Source: a phage. From it: a stretch of DNA of 49,995 bases. The notes beneath the pieces were generated by a model. It had not been told where the DNA came from and did not search any database. It saw nothing but the letters and a program-made list of their open reading frames with translations. Where the stretch lies: the sequence record NC_105507.1; one strand, given 5' to 3'. Positions 987 through 24,788 of the stretch are shown here, piece by piece; within the stretch, counting starts at the first letter, position 1, and each line of letters begins with the position of its first letter. The position numbers and the translations under genes are program-made.

Positions 987-1463
987 TTAGCTATTCGTGC
1001 TGTTATCACCTTTGTAGAATCGTCCGCCTGGTTCGTAGTCTGAATTTTTGACTACGCGCAACATATCGTATTTGTCGCAACGGGTAGTAAGAGGCTTACC
1101 GTTAGAATCAAACCGCAGATCTGGACGACAAAATGATGCGCGGTATCCTTTGCATCCATTATATTTGTAGTCGTTATGCACCTTTTGTGCTCCAGCGGCT
1201 GAAATCATACCACGCTTTCGCCACTGGTTAACGACTTGCTGAGATACGCGCAGACGTCGAGCCATAGCAGGAACGCCGCCGTAATACTCGATCAGAATGT
1301 CAAGGCGAGATTTCAGGCTTGCTTTTACCTCATCTCGCAGGATAAGAAATCCGGTTCGGTGTTTTCGTGGTTTTTTGTCTTTACCTCGTCGCGTTCCGTT
1401 GTTACCGTTAATAGTGCGCTTGTCGATCTCACCCGTAGATACTGCAATTCGTGCATCTTTCAT
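987..1463 (-). CDS. HTH DNA-binding protein (Cro/YdaS-like)
   Basis: helix-turn-helix-like segment GVPAMARRLRVSQQVVNQWRKRG; GAGGTG RBS 5 nt upstream of ATG 1463. Confidence 0.55.
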   Translation of the reverse strand: MKDARIAVSTGEIDKRTINGNNGTRRGKDKKPRKHRTGFLILRDEVKASLKSRLDILIEYYGGVPAMARRLRVSQQVVNQWRKRGMISAAGAQKVHNDYKYNGCKGYRASFCRPDLRFDSNGKPLTTRCDKYDMLRVVKNSDYEPGGRFYKGDNSTNS

Positions 1464-1475
1464 CTAGTCACCTCA

Positions 1476-1518
1476 TAGCATTTTTTGTTAAAACAGTTTA
1501 TTGTAATGAGTCTATTAT
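1476..1518 (+). promoter_or_regulatory. TAGCAC-box promoter-like cassette
   Basis: TAGCATTTTTTGTTAAAAC box then TATTAT 22 bp after TTGTTA; upstream of helicase gene. Confidence 0.5.
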
Positions 1519-1550: not shown

Positions 1551-3548
1551 ATGATTCCAAATATCGAAAAACAAATATCAGCATTAGGCGAGGCAGTAAT
1601 AAAAAGCATCCAAGAGCGATTCACGGTTGGCAATATAGTGCCTTATCCTTATCAGTGCGTTGCGTATGCAGAGATCGCAAAGCGCATGAAAAACTATGAG
1701 CATCCTTTCTTTGTTAAGGCTTCTGTATCGGCTGGCAAAACATTGATGTTTGCGATGGTTGCGGCGCAATGCCGCAAAATGGGATTGAAAATGATGGTCC
1801 TTGCTCGCCAGGCTGAAATTGTTGATCAGGATTCGGAAGAGATCAGCAATCTTGGCGTGCCAAACTCAATCTATTGCGCCGGACTGAAAACAAAAAGCGC
1901 ATACTTTCCGATCGTAGTCGGTTCTGAGGGCACTGTAGTAAACGGATTGTTTAAGTCGTTAGGTGATTATGTTCCGCACGTTATCGGTATTGATGAATGT
2001 CACCAGGTGGATTGGGAGGATCTCGCGGACGCGATAGAAAATAATGAATCTTACCAGCAGATGACCACTAAGAAGGATTTGCCAGTACTGATTGGAGAAG
2101 AACAGCAATTTGATTCCAATGGCGATCCAATGTTCGGAACAGGGCGCACACAGTACACCGTAATAATCATGGAAATGATGCGCAGGTGTCGCGAGGCATA
2201 CGGGCACGAATTGCGAATATTCGGCATGACTGGATCTGAGTTTCGCGGCGTGGTTCCAATACTGGTTGAAGATAAGAACAAAAAGGGATTCTGGCGTGAG
2301 CAAGTAACTAACATAGACACAAACTACTTAATCAAATTCGGTTCGGTAGTGCCAACAAATTTCGGCGACGTCGGCGACCTGGGGTATGACCTTTCAGAGT
2401 TCGAGGCCAGTAGCGAGGACGGCGTTTCAGACTTTGACGCTAAAACATTGCGCAAGATGGAAGAAAAGATCCATCAAGACGCAACAATGACACAGAAAAT
2501 CATGGCTAAAGTCCATGAGATATGCAAAGACAGGAACGGAGTTTTAGTTACATGCGCAGGGGAAAGGCACTGCAAGGAGGCCGCCGCCGCACTGCCGCCA
2601 GGCGTTGAATACAGGATCATAACTGGCAAGACTGGAGATAATCAGCGTAAAGAGTGGCTGAGGGAGGCATACGAGGGAAAAGTAAAATACATCTTCCAGG
2701 TACAGGCGCTTACCACTGGCGTTAACGTTCCGTTTTGGGATACTTCGGTAATGCTGAGAAAGATAGGATCTCTAACATTGCTTATCCAGCTTTTGGGGCG
2801 CGGCATGCGACTGCTTAAGCAATGGCACATTGAACAGGGATTCAAGAAAAAAGATCATCTTGTATTGGATTTTGCAGGTACTATGGATGAGTTAGGTGAT
2901 TTGTATTTCGATCCAATCCTTGAGCAAGCGCAATTCCAAAAGAGATTTACAAACGGGAAAGAGCCTAAGACTTGTCCGATATGTGGAACGCTAAACAGCT
3001 TTTACGCTCGCCGATGTATGCACGTAGACGATAACGGGAAGCGATGTGAGCATTTTTGGACTTACAGAATTTGCGAGGACCAGGTAGATCCGAGAACGAA
3101 AAAGATAATCAAGCGCGGTTGTGGAACAAAAAACGACGTAGTGGCGAGAGTATGCCGTTGTTGCGATATTTCTCTTGTCGATCCTAACGAGAAGTTAAGC
3201 GGTAAGCACTACACCAAAAACGATTGGTGCAACGTTAAATCTTTCCGCGTTGATATGACGAAAAACCAGAAAGGAATTATTTTTTGCTATGAGCTTGAGG
3301 CCAACGGCGATACGTTCAAGGCATACGAAAGATTTTTCCCTGAGTCAGAAAGCAACATTTGCCGGACGATATGGAGAAAAATAGCATTGCAGCACATACC
3401 GGATCGCAAGATTGCTGGTATGGTGGCGAGCTATAGAAATGCTCGTAAAATAATGTCATACGCTCATCACATCATGCCGCCTGTACGCGTAACGCATCGC
3501 AAAAACGGCAAAGGTGAGGATAACATTGCAAAACGGGAGTTTGTTTAA
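1551..3548 (+). CDS. SF2 DNA helicase with C-terminal Zn-ribbons
   Basis: Walker A SAGKT, DECH box, LLGRGMRL motif VI-like; C-terminal CxxC clusters. Confidence 0.85.
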   Translation: MIPNIEKQISALGEAVIKSIQERFTVGNIVPYPYQCVAYAEIAKRMKNYEHPFFVKASVSAGKTLMFAMVAAQCRKMGLKMMVLARQAEIVDQDSEEISNLGVPNSIYCAGLKTKSAYFPIVVGSEGTVVNGLFKSLGDYVPHVIGIDECHQVDWEDLADAIENNESYQQMTTKKDLPVLIGEEQQFDSNGDPMFGTGRTQYTVIIMEMMRRCREAYGHELRIFGMTGSEFRGVVPILVEDKNKKGFWREQVTNIDTNYLIKFGSVVPTNFGDVGDLGYDLSEFEASSEDGVSDFDAKTLRKMEEKIHQDATMTQKIMAKVHEICKDRNGVLVTCAGERHCKEAAAALPPGVEYRIITGKTGDNQRKEWLREAYEGKVKYIFQVQALTTGVNVPFWDTSVMLRKIGSLTLLIQLLGRGMRLLKQWHIEQGFKKKDHLVLDFAGTMDELGDLYFDPILEQAQFQKRFTNGKEPKTCPICGTLNSFYARRCMHVDDNGKRCEHFWTYRICEDQVDPRTKKIIKRGCGTKNDVVARVCRCCDISLVDPNEKLSGKHYTKNDWCNVKSFRVDMTKNQKGIIFCYELEANGDTFKAYERFFPESESNICRTIWRKIALQHIPDRKIAGMVASYRNARKIMSYAHHIMPPVRVTHRKNGKGEDNIAKREFV

Positions 3549-3967
3549 TGGCTATAACTGATAAAGGAGATTATCTTGAGTTTTACGAAAGAGATCCAAC
3601 CGACACGAGAAAGGAAGTTAATCACCAGATAGATAGCTTTCAGTGGTTGACTTATGCTCATCCTTATTTGCTAGCGTGGCATACGGTAAACGAGAATGAG
3701 AAGTCGAAAGTAACGGCGATGATTGATCAGCAGTCCGGCTTGGTTAAGGGGGTAAGCGATTTCATCATCCTGATTGGTTCAAACGGAAAATACCCCTTTG
3801 CAGCGATTGAGATCAAACGAGTGAATAAATCAGGCAAGGGGAAAGCATCACCAGTCAGCGATGAACAAAAGGCTTTTTTGCGTCGCGTTCGCAGCTTAGG
3901 AGGATTCGCTGCGGTCGCCTACGGATTTAATCAGTTTAAGTTAGCTATTGAATACATGCTTAAATAG
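3548..3967 (+). CDS. VRR-NUC domain nuclease (PD-(D/E)XK)
   Basis: DFIIL...AIEIK...Q pattern typical of VRR-NUC; ATG overlaps helicase stop (TAATG). Confidence 0.65.
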   Translation: MAITDKGDYLEFYERDPTDTRKEVNHQIDSFQWLTYAHPYLLAWHTVNENEKSKVTAMIDQQSGLVKGVSDFIILIGSNGKYPFAAIEIKRVNKSGKGKASPVSDEQKAFLRRVRSLGGFAAVAYGFNQFKLAIEYMLK

Positions 3968-4007
3968 CACTTTTTGTTAAAACTGGCGCGATGGATTGCG
4001 CCATAAT
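3965..4007 (+). promoter_or_regulatory. TAGCAC-box promoter-like cassette
   Basis: exact box TAGCACTTTTTGTTAAAAC, GGCGC/GCGCC hairpin, CATAAT 22 bp after TTGTTA. Confidence 0.55.
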
Positions 4008-4044
4008 TCAATAACACGAGATGGCTTTTAATAGCGGAGAAATG

Positions 4045-4773
4045 AAAATGGCTAAAGATATTTTAGATAAAGACACCCATGACGCATTTGTTAGCTTTGA
4101 GCAGTTGGAGAGAGAAACGTTTATAGGAAATGCTCTTGCAACTGGAGGCCATTACCAGGCAGTAAAGCCAAATCAATATTATAAGGTAAGCGGCAACCGA
4201 TACGCTGGAATCACTACGCCGGACGTTGTGCGCGATATGTGGAGCACACCTCAAGAGATCGTGGAGTGGATGGAATCAGAATTTGGCGAATACGATCTCG
4301 ACGCGGCAGCAAGCCAGGAAAACGCAGTTTGCGAGAAGTTCTATAGCAAGGAAACAAACTGCTTAAAGCGTTGGTGGGGTAGCAACAAGCACGTATGGCT
4401 TAACCCGCCGTACAGCAACCCAACTCCATTTATCAAGAAAGCAATTGAGCAAATGGAGCACAACAACCAAATTGATGTTTTGTTGCCATCCGACAACTCT
4501 ACAGCATGGTTTTATGAGGCGCAGAAAAACGCGGCTGAAATCATCTGGATCACTGGCGAGGTTTACGAAGAGGGGGGAGTGGAATATTCCCGCACCGGAA
4601 GAATCGCCTTTGTGTCTGGATTGACTGGCGAGCCTGTACAGGGCAACAATAAGGGAAGCGTGATTTTTGTCATGCGCAAACTTAAAGAAGGCGAGGAGCA
4701 GAAAACGCGATACGTTAAGATCAGCGATATTTGCCCCTCTGTAACCGAACGCCGCGCGCGCAAACGGAGCTAA
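4045..4773 (+). CDS. dam: DNA N6-adenine methyltransferase (Dam-like)
   Basis: NPPY catalytic motif (WLNPPYSNP); GGAG RBS before ATG 4045 (track ORF starts at ATG 4021). Confidence 0.8.
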   Translation, partial: KMAKDILDKDTHDAFVSFEQLERETFIGNALATGGHYQAVKPNQYYKVSGNRYAGITTPDVVRDMWSTPQEIVEWMESEFGEYDLDAAASQENAVCEKFYSKETNCLKRWWGSNKHVWLNPPYSNPTPFIKKAIEQMEHNNQIDVLLPSDNSTAWFYEAQKNAAEIIWITGEVYEEGGVEYSRTGRIAFVSGLTGEPVQGNNKGSVIFVMRKLKEGEEQKTRYVKISDICPSVTERRARKRS

Positions 4774-4777
4774 CACG

Positions 4778-5035
4778 ATGAAAAAAGAGAGAAGCGTTTA
4801 TTTAAATGAAACTGGCGAGTGGTTGTTATTTCGCGCTATGGTGTGCGATGCACTTGATAAAAACCCTAACGTGAAAAAGATGATTGATTGCGATCCGTGG
4901 GAATTTTCAAGCGCATTAGATATGAGCTTTGATGAGACAAGAAAACTCCCTCTTGAAAAATGGCACGAACAAATCAGAAATGATATGCAAGAGTTTGTAG
5001 ATTCGTGGAATTTTCAGAACGGAATGATCCACTAA
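4778..5035 (+). CDS. hypothetical protein
   Basis: ORF with GGAG RBS, tightly packed after dam. Confidence 0.55.
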   Translation: MKKERSVYLNETGEWLLFRAMVCDALDKNPNVKKMIDCDPWEFSSALDMSFDETRKLPLEKWHEQIRNDMQEFVDSWNFQNGMIH

Positions 5036-5078
5036 TAGCACTTTTTGTTAAAACGCCCGGCATTTTGTCGGGCATAAT
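5036..5078 (+). promoter_or_regulatory. TAGCAC-box promoter-like cassette
   Basis: exact box, hairpin GCCCGGC..GTCGGGC, CATAAT at 22-bp spacing. Confidence 0.55.
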
Positions 5079-5110: not shown

Positions 5111-5290
5111 ATGGTGGTATTCGATAAACGCGCTTTTAATCTTGCTCAAGAAGTAGCAAAAGGTTCAGTAGAGGGCGGTTCAAAGGAAGGGTTCCAGTTT
5201 GATTGGGGCATCGCAATGTTTTTACTGAAAGTTGCATACGGTCACGCGCCAATTGAACAAGCGGAGGCATATTATAAGCATGAAGGTTGA
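5111..5290 (+). CDS. hypothetical small protein (59 aa)
   Basis: ORF below track cutoff; GAGG RBS 8 nt upstream of ATG; sits downstream of box cassette. Confidence 0.4.
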   Translation: MVVFDKRAFNLAQEVAKGSVEGGSKEGFQFDWGIAMFLLKVAYGHAPIEQAEAYYKHEG

Positions 5291-7977: not shown

Positions 7978-7995
7978 TGCCTCCTTTATTTTTAT
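7962..7995. terminator. bidirectional rho-independent terminator
   Basis: AGGAGGC/GCCTCCT stem flanked by A-run and T-run between converging lysis and early-left operons. Confidence 0.6.
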
Positions 7996-8216
7996 GCGTC
8001 GGGCCACATATGAGTTTCGTTTGTTGGCTTGTTCGATTCGTCGTACTGCCTTACTTCAATGCTGCAAGTGTCGCCATACATTTCTGCAATCTTGCGCTCA
8101 TTTTCAACCGCCGATTGCTCACTCCATCCAAAATCCCTGTCGTAAATTGTCGGTATTTCAGCAGAAGATCCGTTGTCATGATTATATACGCGAACTACTA
8201 AAAACTTGCTGGACAT
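7992..8216 (-). CDS. hypothetical protein
   Basis: ORF downstream of minus-oriented box cassette. Confidence 0.5.
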   Translation of the reverse strand: MSSKFLVVRVYNHDNGSSAEIPTIYDRDFGWSEQSAVENERKIAEMYGDTCSIEVRQYDESNKPTNETHMWPDA

Positions 8217-8252: not shown

Positions 8253-8295
8253 AATATACCCGACACTAGGCCGGGCGTTTTAACAAAAAATGCTA
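8253..8295 (-). promoter_or_regulatory. TAGCAC-box promoter-like cassette
   Basis: box variant, hairpin arms identical to the 5055-5072 copy, TATATT at 22-bp spacing. Confidence 0.5.
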
Positions 8296-8487
8296 TTCCA
8301 TACGCTTTACCGTAACCAGTAATACACCATCATCATTGCATAAAACATGTTCAGTGGTGCTAAAAGCGCGCATATCTGAATAAAGTAGCGTAAGTAAAGC
8401 ATGAATAAAATCCTCATGTGATATTGAATTTACGGCGCAGTGCTTCAAGATCTTGTCTATTAGCTTTTGCCTGGAACAATTCATCAT
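8293..8487 (-). CDS. hypothetical protein (doubtful)
   Basis: track ORF overlapping 8414..8809 by 74 nt; an alternative ATGA-coupled 36-aa hydrophobic ORF 8307..8417 exists. Confidence 0.25.
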   Translation of the reverse strand: MMNCSRQKLIDKILKHCAVNSISHEDFIHALLTLLYSDMRAFSTTEHVLCNDDGVLLVTVKRME

Positions 8488-8809
8488 CGCCCATCTCCCC
8501 TATTCTAGCAATATCCCTGATCCAGTCGTTGCGCATACCATCCAGGCTATACAATTCGAATCCGAAAGGCCGCTTTGACGATCCTTTGGACCAGTATTTA
8601 CCGCAGACCCCATCTATATAGCCAGCCGTCATCATTCTTGCGCAAAATTCCTTAGATGCAAGGCTGGCGAACATTCGCGGCGTAAGTCCGGCGGCCCGTG
8701 CGAGCCGCTCACATTCTCTATGCTGATAGATAAATTTGGCTATGTGCTGCCTGTTAAACCAGTCGTATGACTCACACCATTTATACAGATCAAGCAAAAA
8801 CATAATCAT
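8414..8809 (-). CDS. hypothetical protein
   Basis: ORF tightly coupled to upstream 526-aa gene. Confidence 0.55.
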   Translation of the reverse strand: MIMFLLDLYKWCESYDWFNRQHIAKFIYQHRECERLARAAGLTPRMFASLASKEFCARMMTAGYIDGVCGKYWSKGSSKRPFGFELYSLDGMRNDWIRDIARIGEMGDDELFQAKANRQDLEALRRKFNIT

Positions 8810-10386
8810 CCCAGCAGTATTGGATTGACAAAAATAACACCATTAATCACACAAACATAATTTCTTTCTTCCAGCATTGGCAGCAAGTGCCCTTCTATCC
8901 TCTTCATTACGCCAGCCTGACCAACGAAAGGTTTTACCTTTCTCGCTGATTCGTACAGGGCGCGAATATTCAGAATCCCTTTATTAGCCTTGCCGTGTCT
9001 AGTGATCAATTCAATCAATTTGCCCATTTCAGCATCATCACCAGCATAACCAGAAGCATTGGCGGCGCTAATGTATGTTTTGCTCAATTCCTGAAACATG
9101 ATCAACGCCTCTTGCATTGTTTCCACGTCGATCTCTTTCGACTTCTGCGGGTATCCAGCAGGATTAAACCAGTTGCGGATAACATGCAGGACGGAAGCAA
9201 GCCTGATCACCTGTTTATCCATTTTACCCAGCGCACCGCGTAACATTGTATGAGAATACTTTCCGCCGTCTGCAAGATGCGGTTCCATATCCTGGCGAGC
9301 AATGTTGAGCACTCGCATAGCTGAGCGGCTTATTTTCAGCGATATATTTGATTCGCTCATGATGTTATGCACCAATTGATAATATTGGGCCTTCAATTCA
9401 GGATCCACCGCCTCATAGGTAGAATCACCATTTTCATCAATGAATGAGCGACGGCCTAAGAATGATTCCTCACGGACCAACAAAAAGCGCTCACTCACAC
9501 CGATACCGCGCGATCCAGCGTCCATGATTCCGCTTATCGTTTCATCCTGGGCTATAACGCTCATACATCCAAGCGCGCGAAAACTCATGTTATTGTCAGC
9601 ATTAGCACGGGCAATTGATACGTGACCATTATCCCACGCCTTAAGCACTAGCTCGCTGTTAGTCTTCCTTTCGCTATTGGCATAGGTCAAGCCTAACAGG
9701 CTGTTAATACTTGTTGCTTCGTCAGATATTACGGCAAAGTTACCTTGCTTGTTGTTGATTTTCGCCAAGCCTTCTGGAGTTGTATCTGAAACAGGAAAAG
9801 TTATATCACACATTTTTTCCAGCTTTTCCTCCAGATCCTCTTTTTCCTGGTATAGAGATTCCATATCAGCGCCGGATCTTTCGCTTTTCATCTCCTTTGC
9901 AAGACCTGCCAGCTTTGCCTGTATTTTCTTTCTTTCCTTGCGGCGTTGCTCGTTGATCTTCTCAACTTCCGCAATCATCGGAGCAATAGCCATGCTGTTG
10001 ATCGCAGATTTACCAGTTGACGGCGGCTGGCTTGTAACGACGTAAAGCGCAGTCGGCTGATCGGTTCCGTGATAGTCAACCGTAAAGCGTCCAAGCATAG
10101 CGGCAGAAATGCAGCCGATAAAGTGCATGTAAGCCGATGATTCAGGGAATTGAACGGATCGCGCAATGCTGCGTGATAACTTGCCGACAACATCAATATC
10201 ATTACCAAGAGAAATAACGGGGTAGCGATCGTGACCGCTATTCACATCCTTTACGTCGCCCCAAAAGCTGGACGACTGGCGATAGCCGTTAGCCTGAATT
10301 GATACGCGAACTGGCGAAAGGTTCTGGCTTTCAGCCATAGCGATTATTTGTTGTGGAGTTAATTTGTTCGTTTCTAATGAAAACAT
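8806..10386 (-). CDS. P-loop NTPase-like protein (SF3-helicase-like Walker A/B), function unknown
   Basis: PPSTGKS Walker A-like and FAVISDEA Walker B-like segments, coiled-coil insert; AAGGAG RBS. Confidence 0.6.
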   Translation of the reverse strand: MFSLETNKLTPQQIIAMAESQNLSPVRVSIQANGYRQSSSFWGDVKDVNSGHDRYPVISLGNDIDVVGKLSRSIARSVQFPESSAYMHFIGCISAAMLGRFTVDYHGTDQPTALYVVTSQPPSTGKSAINSMAIAPMIAEVEKINEQRRKERKKIQAKLAGLAKEMKSERSGADMESLYQEKEDLEEKLEKMCDITFPVSDTTPEGLAKINNKQGNFAVISDEATSINSLLGLTYANSERKTNSELVLKAWDNGHVSIARANADNNMSFRALGCMSVIAQDETISGIMDAGSRGIGVSERFLLVREESFLGRRSFIDENGDSTYEAVDPELKAQYYQLVHNIMSESNISLKISRSAMRVLNIARQDMEPHLADGGKYSHTMLRGALGKMDKQVIRLASVLHVIRNWFNPAGYPQKSKEIDVETMQEALIMFQELSKTYISAANASGYAGDDAEMGKLIELITRHGKANKGILNIRALYESARKVKPFVGQAGVMKRIEGHLLPMLEERNYVCVINGVIFVNPILLG

Positions 10387-10414: not shown

Positions 10415-10457
10415 ATTTTAACGGCCCAATACTACCCCGTTTTGTCAAAAAGTGCTA
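10415..10457 (-). promoter_or_regulatory. TAGCAC-box promoter-like cassette
   Basis: box variant containing TTGACA; TAAAAT in loop of GGGCCGT/ACGGCCC hairpin at 22-bp spacing. Confidence 0.55.
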
Positions 10458-10676
10458 TTTGATCCGCTCTATTGCAACCAGAAGTCGATCAGGCTGGCGG
10501 TCGCTGTAGCATTCTCCTGTAATCCCATCCTTAAACGTAAAGTAAAGCGCCTTATGATATGAAAAACCAATCAGCCAACCTACCGCCGTTTTTTTGATGG
10601 GCCTGACTATATCGCCAGGATTGAAAGTCTTTGTGGTAGAATGCGTTACTTTGTAACGGTTTTCACTGTTTATCAC
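10455..10676 (-). CDS. hypothetical protein
   Basis: ORF in leftward early cluster. Confidence 0.5.
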   Translation of the reverse strand: MINSENRYKVTHSTTKTFNPGDIVRPIKKTAVGWLIGFSYHKALYFTFKDGITGECYSDRQPDRLLVAIERIK

Positions 10677-11059
10677 AGATATTTGCCCTCAAACAGATAA
10701 CAGCCGCCAGCAGAGAATCCGACCTCTTCACGGTACAGGTTCCAGCGGTCGCCGCACTCATCAAAAACATAACCCGCAACGCTTCCAAGCGGTCGCCCTT
10801 TCTCGATCTGGTATCGCTTGCCCTGCTTAAAGTGCTTTTTACACGGCATGTTATGATCTACAAACGTGCAAAGAACGGTCTTTGTGTTAATGGCGCGGTA
10901 ATCATCTCTGTTTGCTGGAAGCCAACGGCTACCCTTAACAAGCGTCTTAACCTGGAACTCTTCCAACTCGATCACATCATTACTTCCTGCAATCTTCTGA
11001 TAAACCGTTTTAAAACGGCCTTTCATCAATACGTTGGTTTCATTACAGATAACATTCAT
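10673..11059 (-). CDS. hypothetical protein
   Basis: ORF with GGAG RBS downstream of box cassette. Confidence 0.55.
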   Translation of the reverse strand: MNVICNETNVLMKGRFKTVYQKIAGSNDVIELEEFQVKTLVKGSRWLPANRDDYRAINTKTVLCTFVDHNMPCKKHFKQGKRYQIEKGRPLGSVAGYVFDECGDRWNLYREEVGFSAGGCYLFEGKYL

Positions 11060-11088: not shown

Positions 11089-11131
11089 ATTATGCCAGGT
11101 TTTTACACCTGGCTTTTAACAAAAAGTGCTA
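11089..11131 (-). promoter_or_regulatory. TAGCAC-box promoter-like cassette
   Basis: box, GCCAGG/CCTGGC hairpin, CATAAT. Confidence 0.55.
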
Positions 11132-11837
11132 TTTTGAGTTTGACTCAAATACGGCGCGAGCAAATCCGCGCGGAGTGAGGGAGCGGATCATCTTTGTGCG
11201 TGATGAATTGCCGCCAGTTTTGGCCCAGCCTGGATTATCTTTGTCTTTCTCTTTCGGCAGGATTAAAGCACGTGGAGGAATAACAAAGCCGTTGCCAGTC
11301 CAGAGGCATGTTTTCTTAAAGTAGCGATCCCGCGCCGGAATAATATCAGGGAAGTCGGGATGTTTATCATCTTCCGGCAGATAGCCAGCGTAATCGCACG
11401 GATGGAACGTATAATCAGGTTTTCGCCATAACGTTGACAACTTGCCAACCGGATTTTCGATCATGTAAGGAACACCGAAATAATCAGCTATATCAGCCGC
11501 GATTCTGCAAGTGTCGGCGGCCTCATCCTGGAACGATGGATTCTCAAGGCGTTTTTTGGCCCAATGGCGAGATCCGCTATTTGCAAGGTCGGTGCAAGGA
11601 GGGAACGCCATAATAAAATCAGGATTGCCCCACTCATTATTGATTGCCTTAACATAAAAAGCATCATCAATCCAGACGTTAACGTATTCGATATTCTCAT
11701 GCTGTATGCGCACTGACTGGTAATCACCGTGATCGCCGCCGTCAGCATTAAAGCAAATGCACTTATATCCATTATCAGCCCAATCTTTAACGGCTTTACC
11801 AGATCCATCAAATAGGGAGAATATTAAACCTTTATAC
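11129..11837 (-). CDS. SAM-dependent DNA methyltransferase-like protein (cytosine-5 type motifs)
   Basis: FSLFDGSG (motif I-like), FPPC (PC dipeptide), ENP (ENV-like); start set to second ATG after GAGG. Confidence 0.45.
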
Positions 11838-11849
11838 ATCGTCATTACC

Positions 11850-12074
11850 TCAAAACGGAAAACAGCGCGGACAACCAGGATCGAAATCGCATCCACAATC
11901 ATTAACAATCATAGTGGGATCTGCAAATATTGCGCTTGATTCAAGATCCATATCCATATCACCTAAAGCCTCATCAAGACTCTTAATTTTATATGCCACT
12001 TCAAGCGCCGCCTCTTTATTTAGTCCGGCATCTTCTGCCATTTGAAGGCGCTCAAAAAATCCGTCTTGACTCAT
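11850..12074 (-). CDS. acidic small protein with C-terminal Cys cluster
   Basis: D/E-rich 74-aa ORF ending CGCDFDPGCPRC. Confidence 0.5.
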   Translation of the reverse strand: MSQDGFFERLQMAEDAGLNKEAALEVAYKIKSLDEALGDMDMDLESSAIFADPTMIVNDCGCDFDPGCPRCFPF

Positions 12075-12564: not shown

Positions 12565-12777
12565 TCATTTCTTATTTTTCATCTTAAATTTATGGCCTGG
12601 AACACCAGCACCAATATAGCCATCGTTGTATTCCATTAAATAAAGGTGAAGGCCATTATCTGAAATTACATGAGGATCTTCTTTGAGATTTCCCATTAGC
12701 GGGTATTCTTTTCCGCGCGTAAATCTCCAATTTGAGTTATAAGTTTCTACGCATTTAAGTTTTAATTGCTTTGCCAT
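12565..12777 (-). CDS. hypothetical protein
   Basis: ORF in leftward early cluster. Confidence 0.5.
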   Translation of the reverse strand: MAKQLKLKCVETYNSNWRFTRGKEYPLMGNLKEDPHVISDNGLHLYLMEYNDGYIGAGVPGHKFKMKNKK

Positions 12778-12974
12778 TAGATGATCTCCATGTATGTTTC
12801 AAAGCCATTTAACTTGAACAGGCCGTTTTCACATTTGCGAACGTTCCAAGTTAGCCCTGAGTGGTACGCCTCCATATCATCAAGGTCAATGGTGATTTCA
12901 GCACCTTTCTTAAACAAACATTTTTCGTGAGACTTGTCGCGCTTAACAACTTTAACATCAACCTGATTTTCCAT
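12777..12974 (-). CDS. hypothetical protein
   Basis: start moved to ATG 12974 with GAGGA RBS; track GTG start at 13025 would overlap the box cassette. Confidence 0.5.
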   Translation of the reverse strand: MENQVDVKVVKRDKSHEKCLFKKGAEITIDLDDMEAYHSGLTWNVRKCENGLFKLNGFETYMEII

Positions 12975-13005: not shown

Positions 13006-13048
13006 AATATACCATTCAGGCGCACATCGTTTTTAACAAAAAGTGCTA
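13006..13048 (-). promoter_or_regulatory. TAGCAC-box promoter-like cassette
   Basis: box (TTGTTAAAAAC variant), TATATT at 22-bp spacing. Confidence 0.5.
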
Positions 13049-13049
13049 T

Positions 13050-13749: not shown

Positions 13750-14003
13750 TTTTTCTTCTCCTGCAATAAGCAAACATCATTGATAAAATCAGCACGGCCC
13801 TTAATGTTGCTGATGTGGAACGTCTTTTCAGCGTACAGGCCATCACCTTCAATCACGATCATTACGCGAGTCGGTTTATTCACGGGCGCACGAGAAAAGA
13901 GTGGTCGCACCGGAAGAAATTTAGTCATCACATCAAGGTTAGCCCTGGCGGCCCTGCAAAACGCCTCCGCCAGATCCAAATCATTTTCGGTAATCACCGC
14001 CAT
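13737..14003 (-). CDS. hypothetical protein
   Basis: ORF in leftward early cluster. Confidence 0.5.
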   Translation of the reverse strand: MAVITENDLDLAEAFCRAARANLDVMTKFLPVRPLFSRAPVNKPTRVMIVIEGDGLYAEKTFHISNIKGRADFINDVCLLQEKKKCWM

Positions 14004-14275
14004 TACTTCTTAATCTCCTTACTGATAAATTTCAGCACCTGGCGCAAGAAAACCTCGTTGTTGATAGTCGCTGGCAATTCTTCTTTCACTTCTTGCGGCA
14101 GATAGATATTGCCGTGCCAGGTCAAGCAATCGTAGTTGATACGATAAGAGCAAAGCCACTCGCAATCGTTATCTGCTTCCCATATGCAGAGTTGCAGAAC
14201 ATCGCCAAAATCTTCAACAGTCAGATCCAGACCGTGACGCTTAGCGAAATTGAAAGTGGTTTTGCTGATGTTCAT
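14003..14275 (-). CDS. hypothetical protein (first gene of leftward early operon)
   Basis: AGGAG RBS; directly downstream of box cassette. Confidence 0.55.
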   Translation of the reverse strand: MNISKTTFNFAKRHGLDLTVEDFGDVLQLCIWEADNDCEWLCSYRINYDCLTWHGNIYLPQEVKEELPATINNEVFLRQVLKFISKEIKK

Positions 14276-14310: not shown

Positions 14311-14353
14311 AATGTACCCGATCAGGCGGCCTGAGTTTTAACAAAAAGCGCTA
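14311..14353 (-). promoter_or_regulatory. TAGCAC-box promoter-like cassette (leftward early)
   Basis: box variant TAGCGC, TCAGG/CCTGA hairpin, TACATT at 22-bp spacing. Confidence 0.5.
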
Positions 14354-14383
14354 TTTGACGGTTAGCACCAGGATTGTGATCGA

Positions 14384-14909: not shown

Positions 14910-14937
14910 TTGACACGCACCAAATAGCTTTTATAAT
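14910..14937 (+). promoter_or_regulatory. consensus sigma70-type promoter (rightward early)
   Basis: TTGACA-16 bp-TATAAT, about 30 bp upstream of RBS/ATG 14969. Confidence 0.7.
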
Positions 14938-15430: not shown

Positions 15431-15702
15431 TGAAAAAGGCATTAATCAGCGTTTTGGCGGCAATGGCATTCCTGACCGGATGCAAAGAAAATGGCGCGCA
15501 TGTTGGCAATGTGCAGATGGCTAACCCTGGTGATGACTACAGCGTAAGGGAGCTATTCACCGCTGACGGTTGCACCGTTTACCGATTCTATGACGATCGC
15601 ACTGTTTACTTCACCAACTGCAAGGGCACTACTAGCCGGGAAGTGTCGAAAAGCAATGGCAAAGGCACGAAGACAGAACATATGACCGTCGAGACAAAAT
15701 AG
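15430..15702 (+). CDS. lipoprotein (candidate superinfection-exclusion/receptor-blocking)
   Basis: signal peptide with lipobox LTGC (MKKALISVLAAMAFLTGC); TAATG overlap with upstream gene. Confidence 0.7.
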   Translation: MKKALISVLAAMAFLTGCKENGAHVGNVQMANPGDDYSVRELFTADGCTVYRFYDDRTVYFTNCKGTTSREVSKSNGKGTKTEHMTVETK

Positions 15703-15742
15703 CACTTTTTGTTAAAACTCAAAAACGATAATCAGGCATAAT
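15700..15742 (+). promoter_or_regulatory. TAGCAC-box promoter-like cassette
   Basis: exact box overlapping TAG stop; CATAAT at 22-bp spacing. Confidence 0.5.
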
Positions 15743-15944: not shown

Positions 15945-16127
15945 ATGATGGATAAGATCATCAAAATGAGCGAAGCCAAGCCGGGAATGATGGTTAAGTT
16001 TGCTGGCAAATATCGCCTAGTGCTGGATAACTGCCGCAAAGAGAACATTCTTACCATTCGTGTAAATGGCAAGGCGCAGCTATTCGCCCCTAACGCAGAT
16101 ATTGACGTTGAAGTTAGAATTAAGTAA
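15945..16127 (+). CDS. hypothetical protein
   Basis: ORF with purine-rich RBS. Confidence 0.45.
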   Translation: MMDKIIKMSEAKPGMMVKFAGKYRLVLDNCRKENILTIRVNGKAQLFAPNADIDVEVRIK

Positions 16128-16715: not shown

Positions 16716-16716
16716 A

Positions 16717-16758
16717 TAGCACTTTTTGTTAAAACTCAAATGTGGGGCCAGGTATAAT
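16717..16758 (+). promoter_or_regulatory. TAGCAC-box promoter-like cassette
   Basis: exact box; TATAAT in loop of GGGCC/GGCCC hairpin (21-bp spacing). Confidence 0.55.
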
Positions 16759-17238: not shown

Positions 17239-17949
17239 ATGAAAAAATACACTTTCGAACTATGGGGCAAGAAGTACGAATTAATCACCAGCAAGCCGAT
17301 TGTTATCGTTGACCTGGACGGCACACTATCGGACGGATCGCATCGTTTGCATTTGCTGCCAACTGAAAACTTACACCTTACGGAATCGTGGAGCGAATTT
17401 AACAGGGCCGCCGCCGGAGATTCACCGATTAAAAGCACGATCGCGGTTATTAACGGTTTGTGGGTGTCGGGATTTGCCATCGTCATCTTGACCGGACGCA
17501 GCGACGAGGTGCGCTATGAAACCTGCAAATGGTTGAATGAGAGCGGCGTGAAGTTTGACGAAATCATCATGCGCCGCCAGGAGGACAACCGAAAGGATAC
17601 GGTTATTAAAGAAGAAGCCTTGCGCGCTATTGGCCTGGACAACATTGTTTGCGCCTTTGACGATTCGCCGAACGTGGTTAAGCACTTCCGCAGCTTGGGG
17701 ATCACAACCTATCAGGTCACGGAATACGACAAGCCACACGCTCACATACAATCTCACGGCGTGGAATCAATAAAGATCACGAAGCGCGCCCGATTCGTCG
17801 ACAGCAAAGACAGCATGGTTAATGCCAGCTTTATCAAAGGCAAGGTTTATGATGTTCATAGCCATGATAAAAACCGATTCTTTTTGTGGGATGAAAAAGG
17901 TTTTGGCTGGTGCTTTGAACACGACGACGGCGATTTTGTTAATGCGTAA
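17239..17949 (+). CDS. HAD-superfamily phosphatase (nucleotidase / polynucleotide 3'-phosphatase-like)
   Basis: DLDGT motif I, LTGRS motif II, FDDS motif IV. Confidence 0.75.
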   Translation: MKKYTFELWGKKYELITSKPIVIVDLDGTLSDGSHRLHLLPTENLHLTESWSEFNRAAAGDSPIKSTIAVINGLWVSGFAIVILTGRSDEVRYETCKWLNESGVKFDEIIMRRQEDNRKDTVIKEEALRAIGLDNIVCAFDDSPNVVKHFRSLGITTYQVTEYDKPHAHIQSHGVESIKITKRARFVDSKDSMVNASFIKGKVYDVHSHDKNRFFLWDEKGFGWCFEHDDGDFVNA

Positions 17950-17992
17950 TAGCACTTTTTGTTAAAACATCTTAACGGGCTTGCGGTATAGT
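17950..17992 (+). promoter_or_regulatory. TAGCAC-box promoter-like cassette
   Basis: exact box after TAA stop; TATAGT in loop of GGGCTT/AAGCCC hairpin at 22-bp spacing. Confidence 0.55.
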
Positions 17993-18023: not shown

Positions 18024-18287
18024 ATGGCTAACAAGATCGAATTTTTCAAAGCGGTAGACATTATTGATGGTGCTCCTAGCTTCTTTGCCATCCATTCCAT
18101 TGACGGCAAGGATATTGGGTACAACGTTATCCGTCGAGATGGAATCTCAAAACTTAGCGATCTGGTAGGGCATATTGTGTCAAACGGGAAGTGCGCATGG
18201 CCCGATTCGCCACGAGAGCCACGCCGCCTCGACATGGTAGAGCCTGTTCTGCTTTACACTCTGGTAGTAGAAGGAGAAAATAAATGA
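18024..18287 (+). CDS. hypothetical protein
   Basis: GAGG RBS. Confidence 0.5.
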   Translation: MANKIEFFKAVDIIDGAPSFFAIHSIDGKDIGYNVIRRDGISKLSDLVGHIVSNGKCAWPDSPREPRRLDMVEPVLLYTLVVEGENK

Positions 18288-18678: not shown

Positions 18679-19269
18679 ATGAAGCGAGACATTATCATCC
18701 TTAATGGGCCGCCAGGTTGCGGGAAGGACACTATTGCAGCTTACCTAACGGGCCATCGTTACCCAGCGGTTAAGGCGTCATTCAAACAGCCGATGTTCGA
18801 TATTGCGTTTTCCATGCTTGGCCCGACTCGATATGATGAGTTTATTGACCTGTACAACGACCGAGAGCAAAAAGAAAAGCCTCAAGTTATCTTAGGCGGC
18901 AAGTCACCTCGACAATTCATGATCTGGATTAGCGAGGATGTAATGAAGCCAGTCTTTGGGGAGCAGTATTTCGGGCGTCGAATGGTTGAAGAGATTAACG
19001 AGATGTACCGAGATTTGACGGTTGTGATCAGTGATGGCGGATTCCCCGAAGAAATCAAGCCGCTTGTTAAGGCAGGGCATGAAGTGCATATTTGCCGATT
19101 GCATCGCGACGGCTTCACGTTTGCTGGCGATTCGAGAGACTACATTGACCTGAGCGGTTATCACTATCGAATCCATCACTATGACTTCCACTTGCAGGAC
19201 GGCAAGCCGGAACTGGCTGTAAACGAGATCGTCAATGCTGTCAAATGGAAGCACACACAGATTAAATAG
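18679..19269 (+). CDS. P-loop nucleotide kinase (dNMP kinase-like)
   Basis: P-loop GPPGCGKDT resembling the GKDT loop of phage dNMP kinases; GGAG RBS. Confidence 0.7.
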   Translation: MKRDIIILNGPPGCGKDTIAAYLTGHRYPAVKASFKQPMFDIAFSMLGPTRYDEFIDLYNDREQKEKPQVILGGKSPRQFMIWISEDVMKPVFGEQYFGRRMVEEINEMYRDLTVVISDGGFPEEIKPLVKAGHEVHICRLHRDGFTFAGDSRDYIDLSGYHYRIHHYDFHLQDGKPELAVNEIVNAVKWKHTQIK

Positions 19270-19309
19270 CACTAATTGCTAAACGCGGGGCGCAATGCCT
19301 CGCTATAAT
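19267..19309 (+). promoter_or_regulatory. TAGCAC-box promoter-like cassette (variant)
   Basis: TAGCACTAATTGCTAAAC, imperfect hairpin, TATAAT at 22-bp spacing. Confidence 0.5.
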
Positions 19310-24771: not shown

Positions 24772-24788
24772 CACTAATTGCTAAAAAG
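24769..24788 (+). repeat. degenerate TAGCAC box copy
   Basis: TAGCACTAATTGCTAAAAAG overlapping terminase stop; no -10 at canonical spacing. Confidence 0.4.

What the first reader, a model, noticed from the sequence alone, without database searches (positions are those of the whole stretch)
3965..5078. Conserved 19-bp TAGCAC box defines a family of promoter-like gene-boundary cassettes
TAGCACTTTTTGTTAAAAC (or a 1-3 mismatch variant) occurs about 18 times in the window, almost always in an intergenic gap and often overlapping the TAG/TAA stop of the upstream gene. In at least 14 copies a -10-like hexamer (CATAAT, TATAAT, TAAAAT, TATAGT, TATATT) sits 21-22 bp after the internal TTGTTA, too far for a canonical sigma70 -35/-10 pair. 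This suggests promoters that rely on an upstream activator box, for example a phage-encoded sigma-appropriation factor, or another box-binding regulator.
Basis: partly seen in the sequence, partly recalled or inferred. Interest (0 to 1): 0.8.

Follow-up and report, generated by a model that had tools for sequence, protein, structure and literature searches.

The report
Phage promoters carrying host marbox sites
The repeated 19-base box marks about sixteen promoters of a T1-like E. coli phage, and it matches the binding site ("marbox") of the host stress activators MarA, SoxS and Rob, placed as in host promoters that need those activators. This gives a testable answer to a published open question about these phages.

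Summary
The window is a near-complete T1-like phage genome (Drexlerviridae, Warwickvirus).

About 16 copies share one layout. The stop codon of the upstream gene lies in or beside the box. Then come a 20-bp box, 18±1 bp that usually form a hairpin, a sigma70-type -10 hexamer preceded by G at -14, an inferred start at A, an A/C-rich leader, and a start codon about 75 nt from the box.

The repeat was already described in phage TLS (2024) as an element of unknown function.

New here: with its preceding A, the box fits the MarA/SoxS/Rob marbox consensus, including 10/10 specified positions of gcannwwntgnnaaa. It scores in the top quartile of ChIP-seq-defined sites. It is forward-oriented and centred near -40, like class II marbox promoters such as micF, which lack a -35.

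I detected no AraC-, MotA-, AsiA- or sigma-like phage protein.

The cassette is conserved in four Drexlerviridae lineages. The main caveat is that relatives reported on Pseudomonas and Vibrio carry it too, so the activator is unproven.

The parts
1475..1518 (+). Cassette before the helicase gene (ATG 1551). Marbox ATAGCATTTTTTGTTAAAAC at 1475-1494, 18-nt spacer, -10 TATTAT at 1513-1518. No hairpin. Its -10 overlaps a minus-strand sigma70-like promoter (TTTAAA-17-TATAAT, 1542 to 1514) that serves the Cro-like regulator gene 987..1463(-).
3964..4007 (+). Cassette before the Dam methylase gene. TAG stop of the VRR-NUC gene (3548..3967) lies inside the box. Marbox 3964-3983. The spacer hairpin spans the 18-nt spacer and runs into the first two bases of the -10 (MFE -11.9). 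-10 CATAAT at 4002-4007. Predicted start near A4014.
5035..5078 (+). Cassette before ORF 5111..5290. TAA stop of 4778..5035 ends on marbox base 1. Marbox 5035-5054. Hairpin 5055-5073, which the terminator scan calls terminator-like. -10 CATAAT at 5073-5078. Predicted start near A5085.
8253..8296 (-). Cassette before ORF 8216..7992(-). Marbox ATAGCATTTTTTGTTAAAAC at 8296-8277. Terminator-like hairpin 8276-8258. -10 TATATT.
10415..10458 (-). Cassette before the second helicase gene (10386..8806). Variant box with TTGACA in place of TTGTTA. -10 TAAAAT lies in the loop of the stem GGGCCGT/ACGGCCC.
11089..11132 (-). Cassette before ORF 11059..10673. TAG stop of the methyltransferase gene (11908..11129) lies inside the box. 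Spacer hairpin CCAGGT/ACCTGG. -10 CATAAT.
13006..13049 (-). Cassette before ORF 13025/12974..12777 (Pfam Gp54). -10 TATATT. Leader begins ACACCCATCGACAAC.
14311..14354 (-). First leftward cassette, at the edge of the 580-bp non-coding region. Box ATAGCGCTTTTTGTTAAAAC (GCGC variant). -10 TACATT. Precedes ORF 14275..14003.
15699..15742 (+). Cassette with an exact box and -10 CATAAT. It is followed by about 195 nt with no ORF before the small ORF 15945..16127.
16716..16758 (+). Cassette with a 17-nt spacer. -10 TATAAT at 16753-16758 lies in the loop of the stem GGGGCC/GGCCC(T). Precedes the ORF starting at 16789.
17949..17992 (+). Cassette after the polynucleotide kinase-like gene (TAA ends on box base 1). 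-10 TATAGT lies in the loop of the stem GGGCTT/AAGCCC. Precedes ORF 18024..18287.
19266..19309 (+). Box ATAGCACTAATTGCTAAACG has 0 mismatches to the extended marbox consensus and scores 17.5 bits. 18 nt, then TATAAT. Precedes the ORF starting at 19340.
20580..20623 (+). Cassette with an exact box. -10 TAAAGT lies in the loop of the stem AAGGGC/GCCCTT. Precedes ORF 20656..20868.
43905..43947 (-). Cassette with box ATAGCACTTTTTGCTAAACG (0 mismatches to the extended consensus), 17-nt spacer and -10 TATAGT. Precedes ORF 43879..43604.
33126..33169 (-). Antisense copy inside the structural module. Box at 33169-33150, -10 TAGATT. It points at the bidirectional terminator 33090-33111 behind the major tail gene, which predicts an RNA of about 45 nt. 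On the plus strand the reversed box sits directly before the Shine-Dalgarno sequence (SD) and ATG of gene 33184. The same arrangement occurs in T1.
29368..29411 (-). Antisense copy between ORF 28585..29367 and the major head gene (29458). The hexamer is poor (TATCAG, no T at -7). A plus-strand terminator lies at 29419-29446. The same position is occupied in T1 (hexamer TATACA).
24768..24787 (+). Box only (ATAGCACTAATTGCTAAAAA, 17.5 bits). It contains the TAG stop of the large terminase gene. A terminator hairpin follows. There is no -10 at 17-19 nt.
49908..49927 (+). Degenerate box (ATAGCACTTTTTGCTAATGA). It is reverse-oriented directly upstream of the SD and ATG (49914) of the minus-strand tail-fibre gene. 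No -10 at the standard distance. A terminator-like hairpin follows.
14910..14937 (+). For contrast, not part of the box family. The only perfect canonical sigma70 promoter in window 1-20000 (TTGACA-16-TATAAT). It heads the rightward early operon, whose first gene encodes a DUF7174 protein.

Best explanation
Each cassette is a compact gene-boundary unit. It ends one transcription or translation unit and starts the next from a sigma70-type promoter that has a good -10 (T-A-t-a-a-T with G at -14) but no -35.

In place of the -35 stands a 20-bp asymmetric box, aATAGCAC-(T/G/A)(TT/AA)TT-G(T/C)TAAA(A/C). Measured from the -10, it covers about -50 to -31. The box is a near-consensus marbox, the site bound by the monomeric two-helix-turn-helix activators MarA, SoxS and Rob (RamA in Klebsiella and Salmonella). 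It has the forward orientation and -40/-41 centring that define host class II marbox promoters such as micF.

Proposed mechanism (inferred, not shown). An activator of this family, supplied by the enterobacterial host, binds the box and contacts RNA polymerase (sigma region 4 and alpha-CTD). It thereby substitutes for -35 recognition and drives early and DNA-metabolism genes from about 16 internal promoters.

The variable 18-bp spacer usually encodes a hairpin, in one of two forms. In the first, the hairpin lies wholly within the spacer and is followed by the T-rich -10 region, so it is terminator-like. In the second, the arms flank the -10. The hairpin most likely acts at RNA level on read-through transcripts from the upstream gene, by terminating or insulating them or stabilising their 3' ends. 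This too is inferred.

Shown: the motif, its excess over chance, the geometry, the -10, the hairpins, conservation across the family, and the match to marbox definitions. Inferred: the transcription start, the identity of the bound protein, and the direction of regulation.
For: (1) Motif excess. 15 copies against 0.01 expected. The marbox definition gcannwwntgnnaaa (PMC12052159) matches 17 times with no mismatch, against 1.7 in simulations. The extended consensus AYNGCACNNWNNRYYAAAYN (PMC2064960) matches 16 times at up to 1 mismatch, against 1.25 simulated.

(2) Independent PWM. I built it from 73 Salmonella MarA/SoxS/Rob/RamA ChIP-seq sites (Table 1 of PMC10268841). Phage boxes score 13.7-17.5 bits. 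The training sites have median 10.9, upper quartile 13.7 and maximum 17.3. E. coli micF scores 13.6 and mar 12.9. The window holds 19 sites at 13.5 bits or more, against 1.86±1.36 simulated.

(3) Geometry. The E. coli micF marbox ACAGCACTGAATGTCAAAAC lies 19 bp from its -10 (TAGAAT at -12..-7 relative to the annotated micF 5' end), centre -41. The phage gap is 18 bp in 47 of 61 sites, 19 in 8 and 17 in 6, which puts the centre near -40. Published forward sites cluster at -41, and class II promoters lack a -35 (PMC10268841; PMC8811837).

(4) Features I did not select on, which argue for a real sigma70 promoter. G at -14 in 50 of 61 sites, T-12 in 50, T-10 in 49, C-1 in 40, A+1 in 48. Also marbox bases A1 in 54, T2 in 52 and A3 in 56 of 61.

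(5) The box positions that vary (8, 9, 10, 14) vary only within the classes the consensus allows (n, W, W, Y).

(6) The same cassette occurs in T1 (Tunavirinae), KLPN1 (Webervirus, Klebsiella) and phiKP26 (Rogunavirinae), with 12-18 copies each. TLS has 18 copies (PMC11447400). An unrelated Vibrio phage with a related terminase has 1 match against 1.29 expected.

(7) No phage candidate of the right kind. No AraC/MarA-like ORF appears. The only recognisable regulator has a Cro fold. Its recognition helix, and that of the DUF7174 protein, differ between subfamilies while the box does not change.

(8) Canonical sigma70 promoters are not enriched: 34 found against 37±5 expected.
Against: No transcription start or protein-binding data exist. 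All promoter positions are counted from the -10 hexamer.

Drexlerviridae reported on hosts outside the Enterobacterales carry the same cassettes. Pseudomonas phage Motto has about 19 copies. It is reported to plaque on 32 of 50 P. aeruginosa isolates; the passage on its tests against E. coli and Klebsiella is truncated in what I could read (PMC10978715). Vibrio phage Vc1 has 8 matches in 24.8 kb against 0.69 expected. From memory, P. aeruginosa has no marA or soxS. I could not test whether it has a protein of equivalent specificity.

The phage box is more strongly conserved than MarA binding alone requires: A3, T11, T12 and T15 are nearly invariant. Consensus position 19 (Y) is A in 35 of 61 sites.

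In unstressed E. coli, MarA and SoxS are scarce and Rob is largely sequestered (PMC10268841), yet these phages grow fast.

The rightward early operon starts from a canonical promoter whose first product, a DUF7174 protein, has a winged-helix-like topology. That would also fit a phage-encoded activator cascade.
Confidence: 0.5

Rival explanations
1. The cassettes are activator-dependent promoters, but the box is read by a phage-encoded protein made early from a canonical promoter. This would be a T4 MotA-like cascade. Candidates are the conserved Cro-like regulator (987..1463, minus strand), the DUF7174 protein (first gene after the perfect sigma70 promoter at 14910), or an unrecognised small early protein.
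For: The cassettes persist in phages reported on Pseudomonas and Vibrio. A canonical promoter heads the rightward early operon, and marbox promoters follow downstream. The Cro-like regulator is conserved at 52-62% identity in all four lineages, and homologues are encoded by Motto and Vc1. The DUF7174 model has a winged-helix-like helix-strand order. The box is conserved beyond what the marbox needs.
Against: A reader unrelated to MarA would have to match, by coincidence, all 10 specified marbox positions, the forward orientation and the -40 position. I estimate this at about 1e-3 or less, even allowing for a few hundred host motifs to compare against (my own calculation).

The regulator has a single-HTH Cro fold (target-normalised TM-score 0.73 to Xfaso 1 Cro). 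Such proteins typically bind palindromic operators as dimers, and the box is asymmetric.

The putative recognition helices of both candidates differ between subfamilies while the box stays the same. DUF7174 was not detected in the first early protein of KLPN1 and only weakly in that of T1.

No MotA, AsiA, sigma or AraC homologue was found.
Confidence: 0.27
2. The cassettes are factor-independent promoters. RNA polymerase alone uses the -10 with G at -14, and the T- and A-tracts of the box act as an UP-like element for alpha-CTD. This is one of the ideas raised in the TLS paper.
For: The -10 is good and G-14 is frequent. The box is A/T-rich with a T5 and an A4 tract. This reading would explain function in any host, since sigma70 and alpha are conserved. 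The UP-element idea is raised in PMC11447400.
Against: The invariant G4, C5, C7 and G13 are not features of the UP-element consensus (from memory: Estrem et al., nnAAAWWTWTTTTnnnAAAnnn, -59 to -38). The tracts lie 4-6 bp out of register with the UP subsites. T at -15 is present in only 25 of 61 sites, so most copies lack a full extended -10. Part of the G-14 signal may come from the hairpin stems.
Confidence: 0.08
3. The box is an operator or 'stoperator': a site where a phage repressor shuts off or blocks transcription, as the L5 repressor does at its asymmetric 13-bp sites. The promoter function lies elsewhere in the cassette.
For: The sites are asymmetric, intergenic and oriented with transcription, the features that led the TLS authors to draw this analogy. 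The Cro-like regulator exists. The reverse-oriented copies next to late genes are not explained by a simple promoter role.
Against: The fixed 18±1 bp distance to a -10, with no alternative -35, shows that the box is part of the promoter. These are virulent phages, and no repressor or integrase module was found. A repressor role could coexist with activation.
Confidence: 0.05
4. The copies are mainly terminators, RNA elements or recombination boundary sequences, and the -10-like hexamers are incidental.
For: Hairpins are significantly stable: mean MFE -10.6 against -6.3 kcal/mol for random segments, p = 2e-10. The T1 record annotates several as rho-independent terminators. Two are called terminator-like here. 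Identical 20-mers at module boundaries could promote recombination.
Against: The hairpin sequence varies while the box and hexamer are fixed. Most hairpins lack a U-tract. The helicase promoters in divergent regions have the box and -10 but no hairpin in all four genomes. No Rfam family matched. The hexamer shows the sigma70-specific pattern: A-11 and T-7 (required by my filter) with T-12, T-10, G-14 and C-1/A+1.
Confidence: 0.03

Closest known systems
Class II MarA/SoxS/Rob(RamA)-dependent promoters of Enterobacteriaceae (e.g. micF, lpxC P2, lpxL P1)
   Same: Both have a 20-bp asymmetric marbox with GCAC and TAAA elements 7 bp apart. Both are forward-oriented, centred near -40/-41 and overlap the place of the -35. 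Both lack a recognisable -35 and have a sigma70 -10. The phage box is 15/20 identical to the micF marbox, including the terminal AAAAC.
   Different: The phage sites lie in a virulent phage genome rather than in the host regulon. There are about 16 near-identical, near-consensus copies in 50 kb, whereas host sites are degenerate. The gap to the -10 is mostly 18 bp (19 in micF). The box overlaps the upstream stop codon, and the spacer carries a hairpin. Binding by MarA, SoxS or Rob is untested.
The 21-nt direct repeats of phage TLS (aaATAGCACnnnTTGnTAAAA; PMC11447400, 2024)
   Same: It is the same element: intergenic, oriented with transcription, about 76 nt upstream of start codons, and also noted (unpublished) in T1, Rtp and Rogue1.
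   Different: That paper leaves the function open, suggesting stoperator, enhancer site or UP element. It does not report the fixed -10 hexamer, the G at -14, the hairpins or the marbox identity.
T4 middle promoters (MotA box plus AsiA sigma appropriation)
   Same: Both are phage promoters with a sigma70 -10 and no -35, in which a conserved upstream box is read by an activator that replaces -35 recognition.
   Different: From memory, the MotA box is (a/t)(a/t)(a/t)TGCTTtA, centred at -30 and 11-13 bp from the -10. Here the box has a different sequence, is centred at -40 and lies 18 bp from the -10. No MotA or AsiA homologue was found.
Mycobacteriophage L5 stoperators
   Same: Both are many asymmetric, oriented, intergenic copies of one short site across a phage genome.
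   Different: Stoperators are repressor sites of a temperate phage that block elongation and have no fixed relation to a -10. These boxes sit at a fixed promoter position in virulent phages.

Membership tests
Class II MarA/SoxS/Rob (marbox) promoter | 20-bp asymmetric site matching AYnGCACnnWnnRYYAAAYn / gcannwwntgnnaaa | tested here: met
   All 10 specified positions of the short definition are matched in 17 sites. 16 sites have at most 1 mismatch to the extended consensus, and the usual mismatch is A at position 19. PWM scores are 13.7-17.5 bits, in the top quartile of ChIP-seq-defined sites.
Class II MarA/SoxS/Rob (marbox) promoter | Forward orientation relative to transcription | tested here: met
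   GCAC lies upstream and AAA downstream, on the strand of the downstream gene, in the 14 gene-proximal cassettes. Three further copies are reverse to the neighbouring late gene.
Class II MarA/SoxS/Rob (marbox) promoter | Site overlaps the -35 position, centred about -41 (published windows -36..-55, or 30-42 bp upstream of the start) | tested here: met
   The gap to the -10 is 18 bp (47 of 61 sites), 19 (8) or 17 (6), which puts the centre near -40 when the hexamer is taken as -12..-7. micF measured the same way gives -41. The position is counted from the hexamer. No start site has been mapped.
Class II MarA/SoxS/Rob (marbox) promoter | Sigma70 -10 present and no recognisable -35 at 16-18 bp | tested here: met
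   Consensus T50 A61 T49 A40 a32 T61 of 61 sites (A-11 and T-7 were required by my filter), with G-14 in 50 of 61. The canonical promoter scan reports only the 17-bp-gap copy at 16729, through TTAAAA.
Class II MarA/SoxS/Rob (marbox) promoter | Binding of, and activation by, MarA, SoxS or Rob | not testable with these tools
   This needs gel-shift or footprinting assays, in vitro transcription and a marA soxS rob mutant host. The Pseudomonas and Vibrio relatives that carry the cassette are a warning.
T4-type middle promoter (sigma appropriation) | MotA-box sequence centred at -30, 11-13 bp from the -10 | tested here: not met
   The box has a different sequence, lies 18 bp from the -10 and is centred near -40. 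The MotA-box definition is from memory.
T4-type middle promoter (sigma appropriation) | Phage encodes MotA-like activator and AsiA-like co-activator | tested here: not met
   Pfam scans of 54 non-structural ORFs gave no MotA, AsiA or sigma family among hits down to E of about 0.002. Divergent analogues cannot be excluded.
UP element | A/T-rich -59..-38 sequence fitting nnAAAWWTWTTTTnnnAAAnnn and read by alpha-CTD | tested here: not met
   The T- and A-tracts are present but 4-6 bp out of register. The invariant G4, C5, C7 and G13 are foreign to the UP consensus (consensus from memory).
L5-type stoperator | Site of a phage repressor, located in transcribed intergenic DNA without a fixed promoter position | tested here: not met
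   The distance to a -10 hexamer is fixed. No repressor or integrase module is annotated or was found.
TLS/T1 21-nt direct repeat family (PMC11447400) | aaATAGCACnnnTTGnTAAAA, intergenic, co-oriented, about 76 nt before start codons | tested here: met
   The sequence is identical. Start codons lie +68 to +80 from the box.

The most novel reading that the evidence does not exclude
T1-like phages (Drexlerviridae) have wired most of their early and DNA-metabolism transcription to the host's MarA/SoxS/Rob stress-response activators, through about 16 super-consensus class II marboxes per genome.

If so, infection would be tuned by the same signals that induce antibiotic tolerance (salicylate, redox agents, bile salts). 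Replicating phage DNA would also present hundreds to thousands of high-affinity sites, which could titrate these regulators away from the host regulon.

The reverse-oriented copies facing terminators next to late genes would then make short antisense RNAs, or drive convergent transcription, keeping late genes quiet while the activator is engaged.
Probability: 0.35. Interest if true: 0.8.

Novelty: new member of a known kind. Interest (0 to 1): 0.62.

Why it matters
Phage T1 is one of the classic T phages, yet how T1-like phages organise transcription without their own polymerase or sigma factor is unknown. [quoted passage not shown]

Reading the repeat as a class II marbox turns that question into a few simple experiments: gel shifts with MarA, SoxS and Rob, reporters, and plating on a marA soxS rob mutant.

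If confirmed, it would be a clear case of a virulent phage family using a host stress and antibiotic-resistance regulon as its activator. That would bear on phage-antibiotic combinations and on host range. It would also provide compact terminator-promoter cassettes for engineering.

If refuted, the near-perfect mimicry of the marbox by another protein's site would itself need explaining.

Tried and rejected
(1) TTGTTA as a sigma70 -35. The spacer is 22 bp, and alternative hexamers (TTAAAA at 19 bp, TAAAAC at 18 bp) are poor. The canonical scan finds promoters at chance level, 34 against 37±5.

(2) A phage-encoded MarA-like protein. tblastn with MarA and SoxS gave a best E of 1.6. A MarA/SoxS/Rob-N profile against all six-frame segments gave a best E of 0.6. 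Pfam on 54 ORFs gave no HTH_18/AraC, MotA, AsiA or sigma hit, and PHROGs gave none either.

(3) The Cro-like regulator as an atypical two-module DNA binder. The AlphaFold model (pLDDT 86) matches only all-alpha Cro proteins.

(4) The DUF7174 first early protein as the activator. The model (pLDDT 83) has no significant PDB match, only scattered winged-helix proteins at TM 0.2-0.3. Its putative recognition helix is not conserved between subfamilies.

(5) An RNA-family explanation. There were no Rfam hits at the gathering threshold over the whole window or at E up to 1 in 15700-15960, and no tRNA.

(6) Prior art. Searches for the sequence, for marbox with bacteriophage, and for Drexlerviridae with MarA found only the TLS paper describing the repeat, and no paper linking it to the marbox. 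No transcription start mapping for Drexlerviridae was found.

(7) The Martin et al. 1999 paper, the original class I/II definition, is not held. I used later open-access papers instead.

(8) The locus files for L003 and L006 never appeared in the script sandbox. I therefore scanned L006 with the DNA search.
Full report
**What the window is.** Window 3000-9000 is 98% identical to Escherichia phages Poky, Kalemo, FritzSarasin and tiwna. The tiwna record places them in Drexlerviridae, Tempevirinae, Warwickvirus, a T1-like siphophage group. The window is essentially a permuted whole genome. It holds early and DNA-metabolism genes on both strands (about 1-23,000 and 42,700-49,995) and a structural block on the plus strand (about 23,200-42,700).

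**Checking the observation.** The 19-mer occurs 15 times at up to 3 mismatches, against 0.01 expected, and 17 times at up to 4 mismatches. The copies at 3965 and 5036 are exact.

Aligning the copies shows a fixed layout. After the box come 18 variable bases (17 in two copies), then a hexamer of the form xAxxxT (CATAAT, TATATT, TATAGT, TAAAGT, TATAAT).

In 12 of the 19 copies tabulated, the stop codon of the upstream same-strand ORF lies in or against the box (TAG at bases 2-4, or TAA ending at base 0 or 1). The next start codon lies 68-80 nt from the first box base.

**Prior description.** The element is not new as a repeat. The 2024 re-annotation of phage TLS reports a 21-nt direct repeat, aaATAGCACnnnTTGnTAAAA. 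It has 18 intergenic copies, oriented with transcription, about 76 nt before start codons, and was also seen (unpublished) in T1, Rtp and Rogue1. The authors found only three sigma70-like promoters. They suggested stoperators, enhancer sites or UP elements, and listed the repeat's function as an open question (PMC11447400). They did not report a -10 hexamer at fixed distance.

**What the box is.** With the A that precedes it, the box reads ATAGCACTTTTTGTTAAAAC.
- The soxbox/marbox consensus is AYNGCACNNWNNRYYAAAYN (quoted in PMC2064960). The box fits it at every specified position except 19.
- The Grainger laboratory's working definition is gcannwwntgnnaaa (PMC12052159). GCACTTTTTGTTAAA matches all 10 specified positions.
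- In the window the short definition matches 17 times without mismatch (1.7 in simulations). The long one matches 16 times at up to 1 mismatch (1.25 simulated).

The consensus scan also recovers variant copies the 19-mer misses. One is 19266(+), ATAGCACTAATTGCTAAACG followed by 18 nt and TATAAT.

As an independent yardstick I built a weight matrix from 73 sites under MarA/SoxS/Rob/RamA ChIP-seq peaks in Salmonella (Table 1 of PMC10268841).
- Phage boxes score 13.7-17.5 bits.
- The training sites have median 10.9, upper quartile 13.7 and maximum 17.3.
- The classical E. coli micF and mar marboxes, read from MG1655, score 13.6 and 12.9.
- The window holds 19 sites at 13.5 bits or more, against 1.86±1.36 in 200 simulations.
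- An unrelated Vibrio phage that shares only a related terminase has 1 consensus match against 1.29 expected.

**Geometry.** Published class II marbox promoters have a forward site overlapping the -35. Sites cluster at -41, and such promoters lack a recognisable -35. [quoted passage not shown]

In MG1655 the micF marbox ACAGCACTGAATGTCAAAAC ends 19 bp before TAGAAT, which lies at -12..-7 relative to the annotated micF 5' end. Its centre is at -41. It is 15/20 identical to the phage box, including the terminal AAAAC.

The phage boxes are forward with respect to the downstream gene and lie 18 bp from the hexamer, one base closer, which puts the centre near -40. A conserved 20-mer unrelated to MarA would match all specified positions, in the right orientation and at the right place, with a probability I estimate at about 1e-3 or less. 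That estimate allows for a few hundred host motifs one could compare against. It is my own calculation, not a tool result.

**Conservation across the family.** I scanned phage T1 (Tunavirinae), Klebsiella phage KLPN1 (Webervirus) and phiKP26 (Rogunavirinae) with the same matrix. Each has 12-18 cassettes.

I pooled 61 sites from four genomes. These were selected only on the 15-mer score and on A-11/T-7 in the hexamer. The following features were not selected on:
- A1 in 54, T2 in 52, A3 in 56 and A-1 in 43 of 61 sites.
- G at -14 in 50, T-12 in 50, T-10 in 49 and A-9 in 40.
- C-1 in 40 and A+1 in 48, followed by an A/C-rich leader (ATCGAAAC or ATCGACAAC).

The gap to the hexamer is 18 bp in 47 sites, 19 in 8 and 17 in 6. 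The box positions that vary (8, 9, 10, 14) vary only as n, W, W, Y, as the consensus allows. For example, the centre reads TTTTT, GAATT, TAATT or AAATT.

These are sigma70-type promoters with a partial extended -10 and an activator-type box in place of the -35. Canonical promoters are not enriched (34 found against 37±5 expected). One perfect TTGACA-16-TATAAT at 14910-14937 heads the rightward early operon.

**The spacer hairpins.** Across the 61 sites, the segment from the box to +12 folds with mean MFE -10.6 kcal/mol, against -6.3 for random 42-mers from the same genomes (Mann-Whitney p = 2e-10). The mean z-score against shuffles is -2.6.

There are two forms.
- In the first, the hairpin lies within the spacer, often with a GAAA loop, and ends at -13. 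It is followed by the T-rich -10 region. The T1 record annotates such hairpins as rho-independent terminators. The scan here calls 5055-5073 and 8276-8258 terminator-like.
- In the second, the arms flank the -10 (5' arm in the spacer, 3' arm in the discriminator). The arm sequences differ from copy to copy but stay complementary. The duplex energy of a spacer with its own downstream arm is -7.16, against -4.82±0.27 for swapped partners, and none of 200 permutations reached the observed value.

Hairpins are stronger where a co-directional ORF ends at the box (median -13.4 against -8.2, p = 0.019). They are absent from the helicase promoter in the divergent region in all four genomes. I therefore read them as RNA-level features of read-through transcripts: termination, insulation or 3'-end protection. 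This is inference.

**Who reads the box?**

*Phage candidates.* tblastn and a MarA/SoxS/Rob profile find no AraC-type protein in any frame. Pfam and PHROGs on the non-structural ORFs find no AraC, MotA, AsiA or sigma family.

The one recognisable regulator (987..1463, minus strand) gives a confident model (pLDDT 86). Its only structural relatives are all-alpha Cro proteins (Xfaso 1 and N15 Cro), which normally bind palindromes as dimers. The box is asymmetric. The regulator's recognition helix differs among the four lineages (SQQVVNQWRKRG, SNQTVQGWKERN, SIQVVQQWRKRG, TRQAVEEWCKRG), while the box does not change.

The first early protein (DUF7174) has a winged-helix-like order of helices and strands but no significant structural match. 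It is only 26-33% identical between subfamilies, with a divergent putative recognition helix.

An invariant site read by a conserved host protein fits these facts better.

*Against the host reading.* Pseudomonas phage Motto (Drexlerviridae, GC 45%) carries about 19 cassettes. It is reported to plaque on 32 of 50 P. aeruginosa isolates; the passage on its tests against E. coli and Klebsiella is truncated in what I could read (PMC10978715). Vibrio phage Vc1 carries the cassettes too. I could not test whether those hosts have a protein with MarA-like specificity.

In unstressed E. coli, MarA and SoxS are scarce and Rob is largely sequestered. I therefore put the host-activator explanation at about 0.5 and a phage-encoded reader at about 0.27. 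I rate the statement that these are activator-type promoter cassettes much higher.

The element was already published as a repeat of unknown function. What this analysis adds:
- the complete cassette anatomy;
- its presence in four lineages;
- the identification of the box as a forward, class II-positioned, near-consensus marbox.

That places the element as a new member of a known kind of promoter, in an unexpected place. It makes the open question in the TLS paper directly testable.

Noticed in passing
window 15750-15945 (+), core 15775-15826: The marbox promoter at 15699 is followed by about 195 nt of GC-rich sequence with no ORF, before the small ORF 15945..16127. There is no Rfam or tRNA hit, and the fold z-score is 0.12. 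However, a 52-nt core is 90-94% identical in more than 100 genomes of unrelated siphophages, mostly in unannotated DNA (Dhillonvirus: HK578, jat, bob, KarlBarth). About 140 nt are 83-85% identical in HeidiAbel_Bas97 and Lumpael. This is a candidate conserved phage non-coding RNA or mobile non-coding element.
   Followed up: partly
window 33075-33169 (-); T1 (L004) about 18760-18850 (-): A reverse-oriented cassette (box 33169-33150, -10 TAGATT) points at the bidirectional terminator 33090-33111 behind the major tail gene. It would yield an RNA of about 45 nt that is antisense to that terminator. On the plus strand the reversed box directly abuts the Shine-Dalgarno sequence (SD) and ATG of the tape-measure chaperone gene (33184). 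The same arrangement, including the sequence gattttacag(g/a)aatgaa, occurs in T1.
   Followed up: partly
window 29392-29446; 49908-49927: Two more boxes are reverse-oriented just upstream of late genes. One lies before the major head gene, with a poor hexamer (TATCAG; T1 has TATACA) and a plus-strand terminator at 29419-29446. The other lies directly before the SD and ATG (49914) of the minus-strand tail-fibre gene. Their role is unexplained. They do not fit class I or class II rules for the adjacent gene.
   Followed up: partly
window 1475-1545: Two promoters overlap face to face. The plus-strand marbox promoter for the helicase gene has its -10 (TATTAT) at 1513-1518. The minus-strand sigma70-like promoter for the Cro-like regulator (TTTAAA-17-TATAAT) runs from 1542 to 1514. 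They share the same -10 bases, so RNA polymerase can occupy only one at a time. This could act as a switch.
   Followed up: no
window 14355-14935: This is a 580-bp non-coding region between the leftward and rightward early operons. It has five TAATCA-type repeats (about 14376-14475), a very A/T-rich stretch (14625-14700) and G/T-rich runs. It ends in the only perfect sigma70 consensus promoter of window 1-20000 (14910-14937). It is probably the genome-end, pac or origin region.
   Followed up: no
window 984-1003 (-) and 39082-39101 (+): Box-like sequences occur in other contexts. ACAGCACGAATAGCTAATGA lies in the 3' end of the regulator gene, and a terminator follows whose loop holds TAATAT. 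ACAGCACAAAAGGTTAAAAG lies at the 5' end of the large tail-tip/fibre gene. The second is also present in TLS (repeat DR8) and in phiKP26, where it overlaps the annotated start codon.
   Followed up: no
window 12777-13025 (-) and 15430-15702 (+): The ORF downstream of cassette 13049 matches Pfam PF25180, 'Phage antiviral trigger protein Gp54' (E = 2.6e-37). The second gene of the rightward early operon encodes a small lipoprotein, with signal sequence MKKALISVLAAMAFLTGC.
   Followed up: no
window 987-1463 (-): The Cro-like regulator has a conserved, strongly basic N-terminal tail (DKRTINGNNGTRRGKDKKPRKR, low pLDDT). It also has a conserved C-terminal extension with the motif RPDLRFDSNGKP and conserved Cys and His residues. 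Neither part resembled a solved structure in the Foldseek search.
   Followed up: partly
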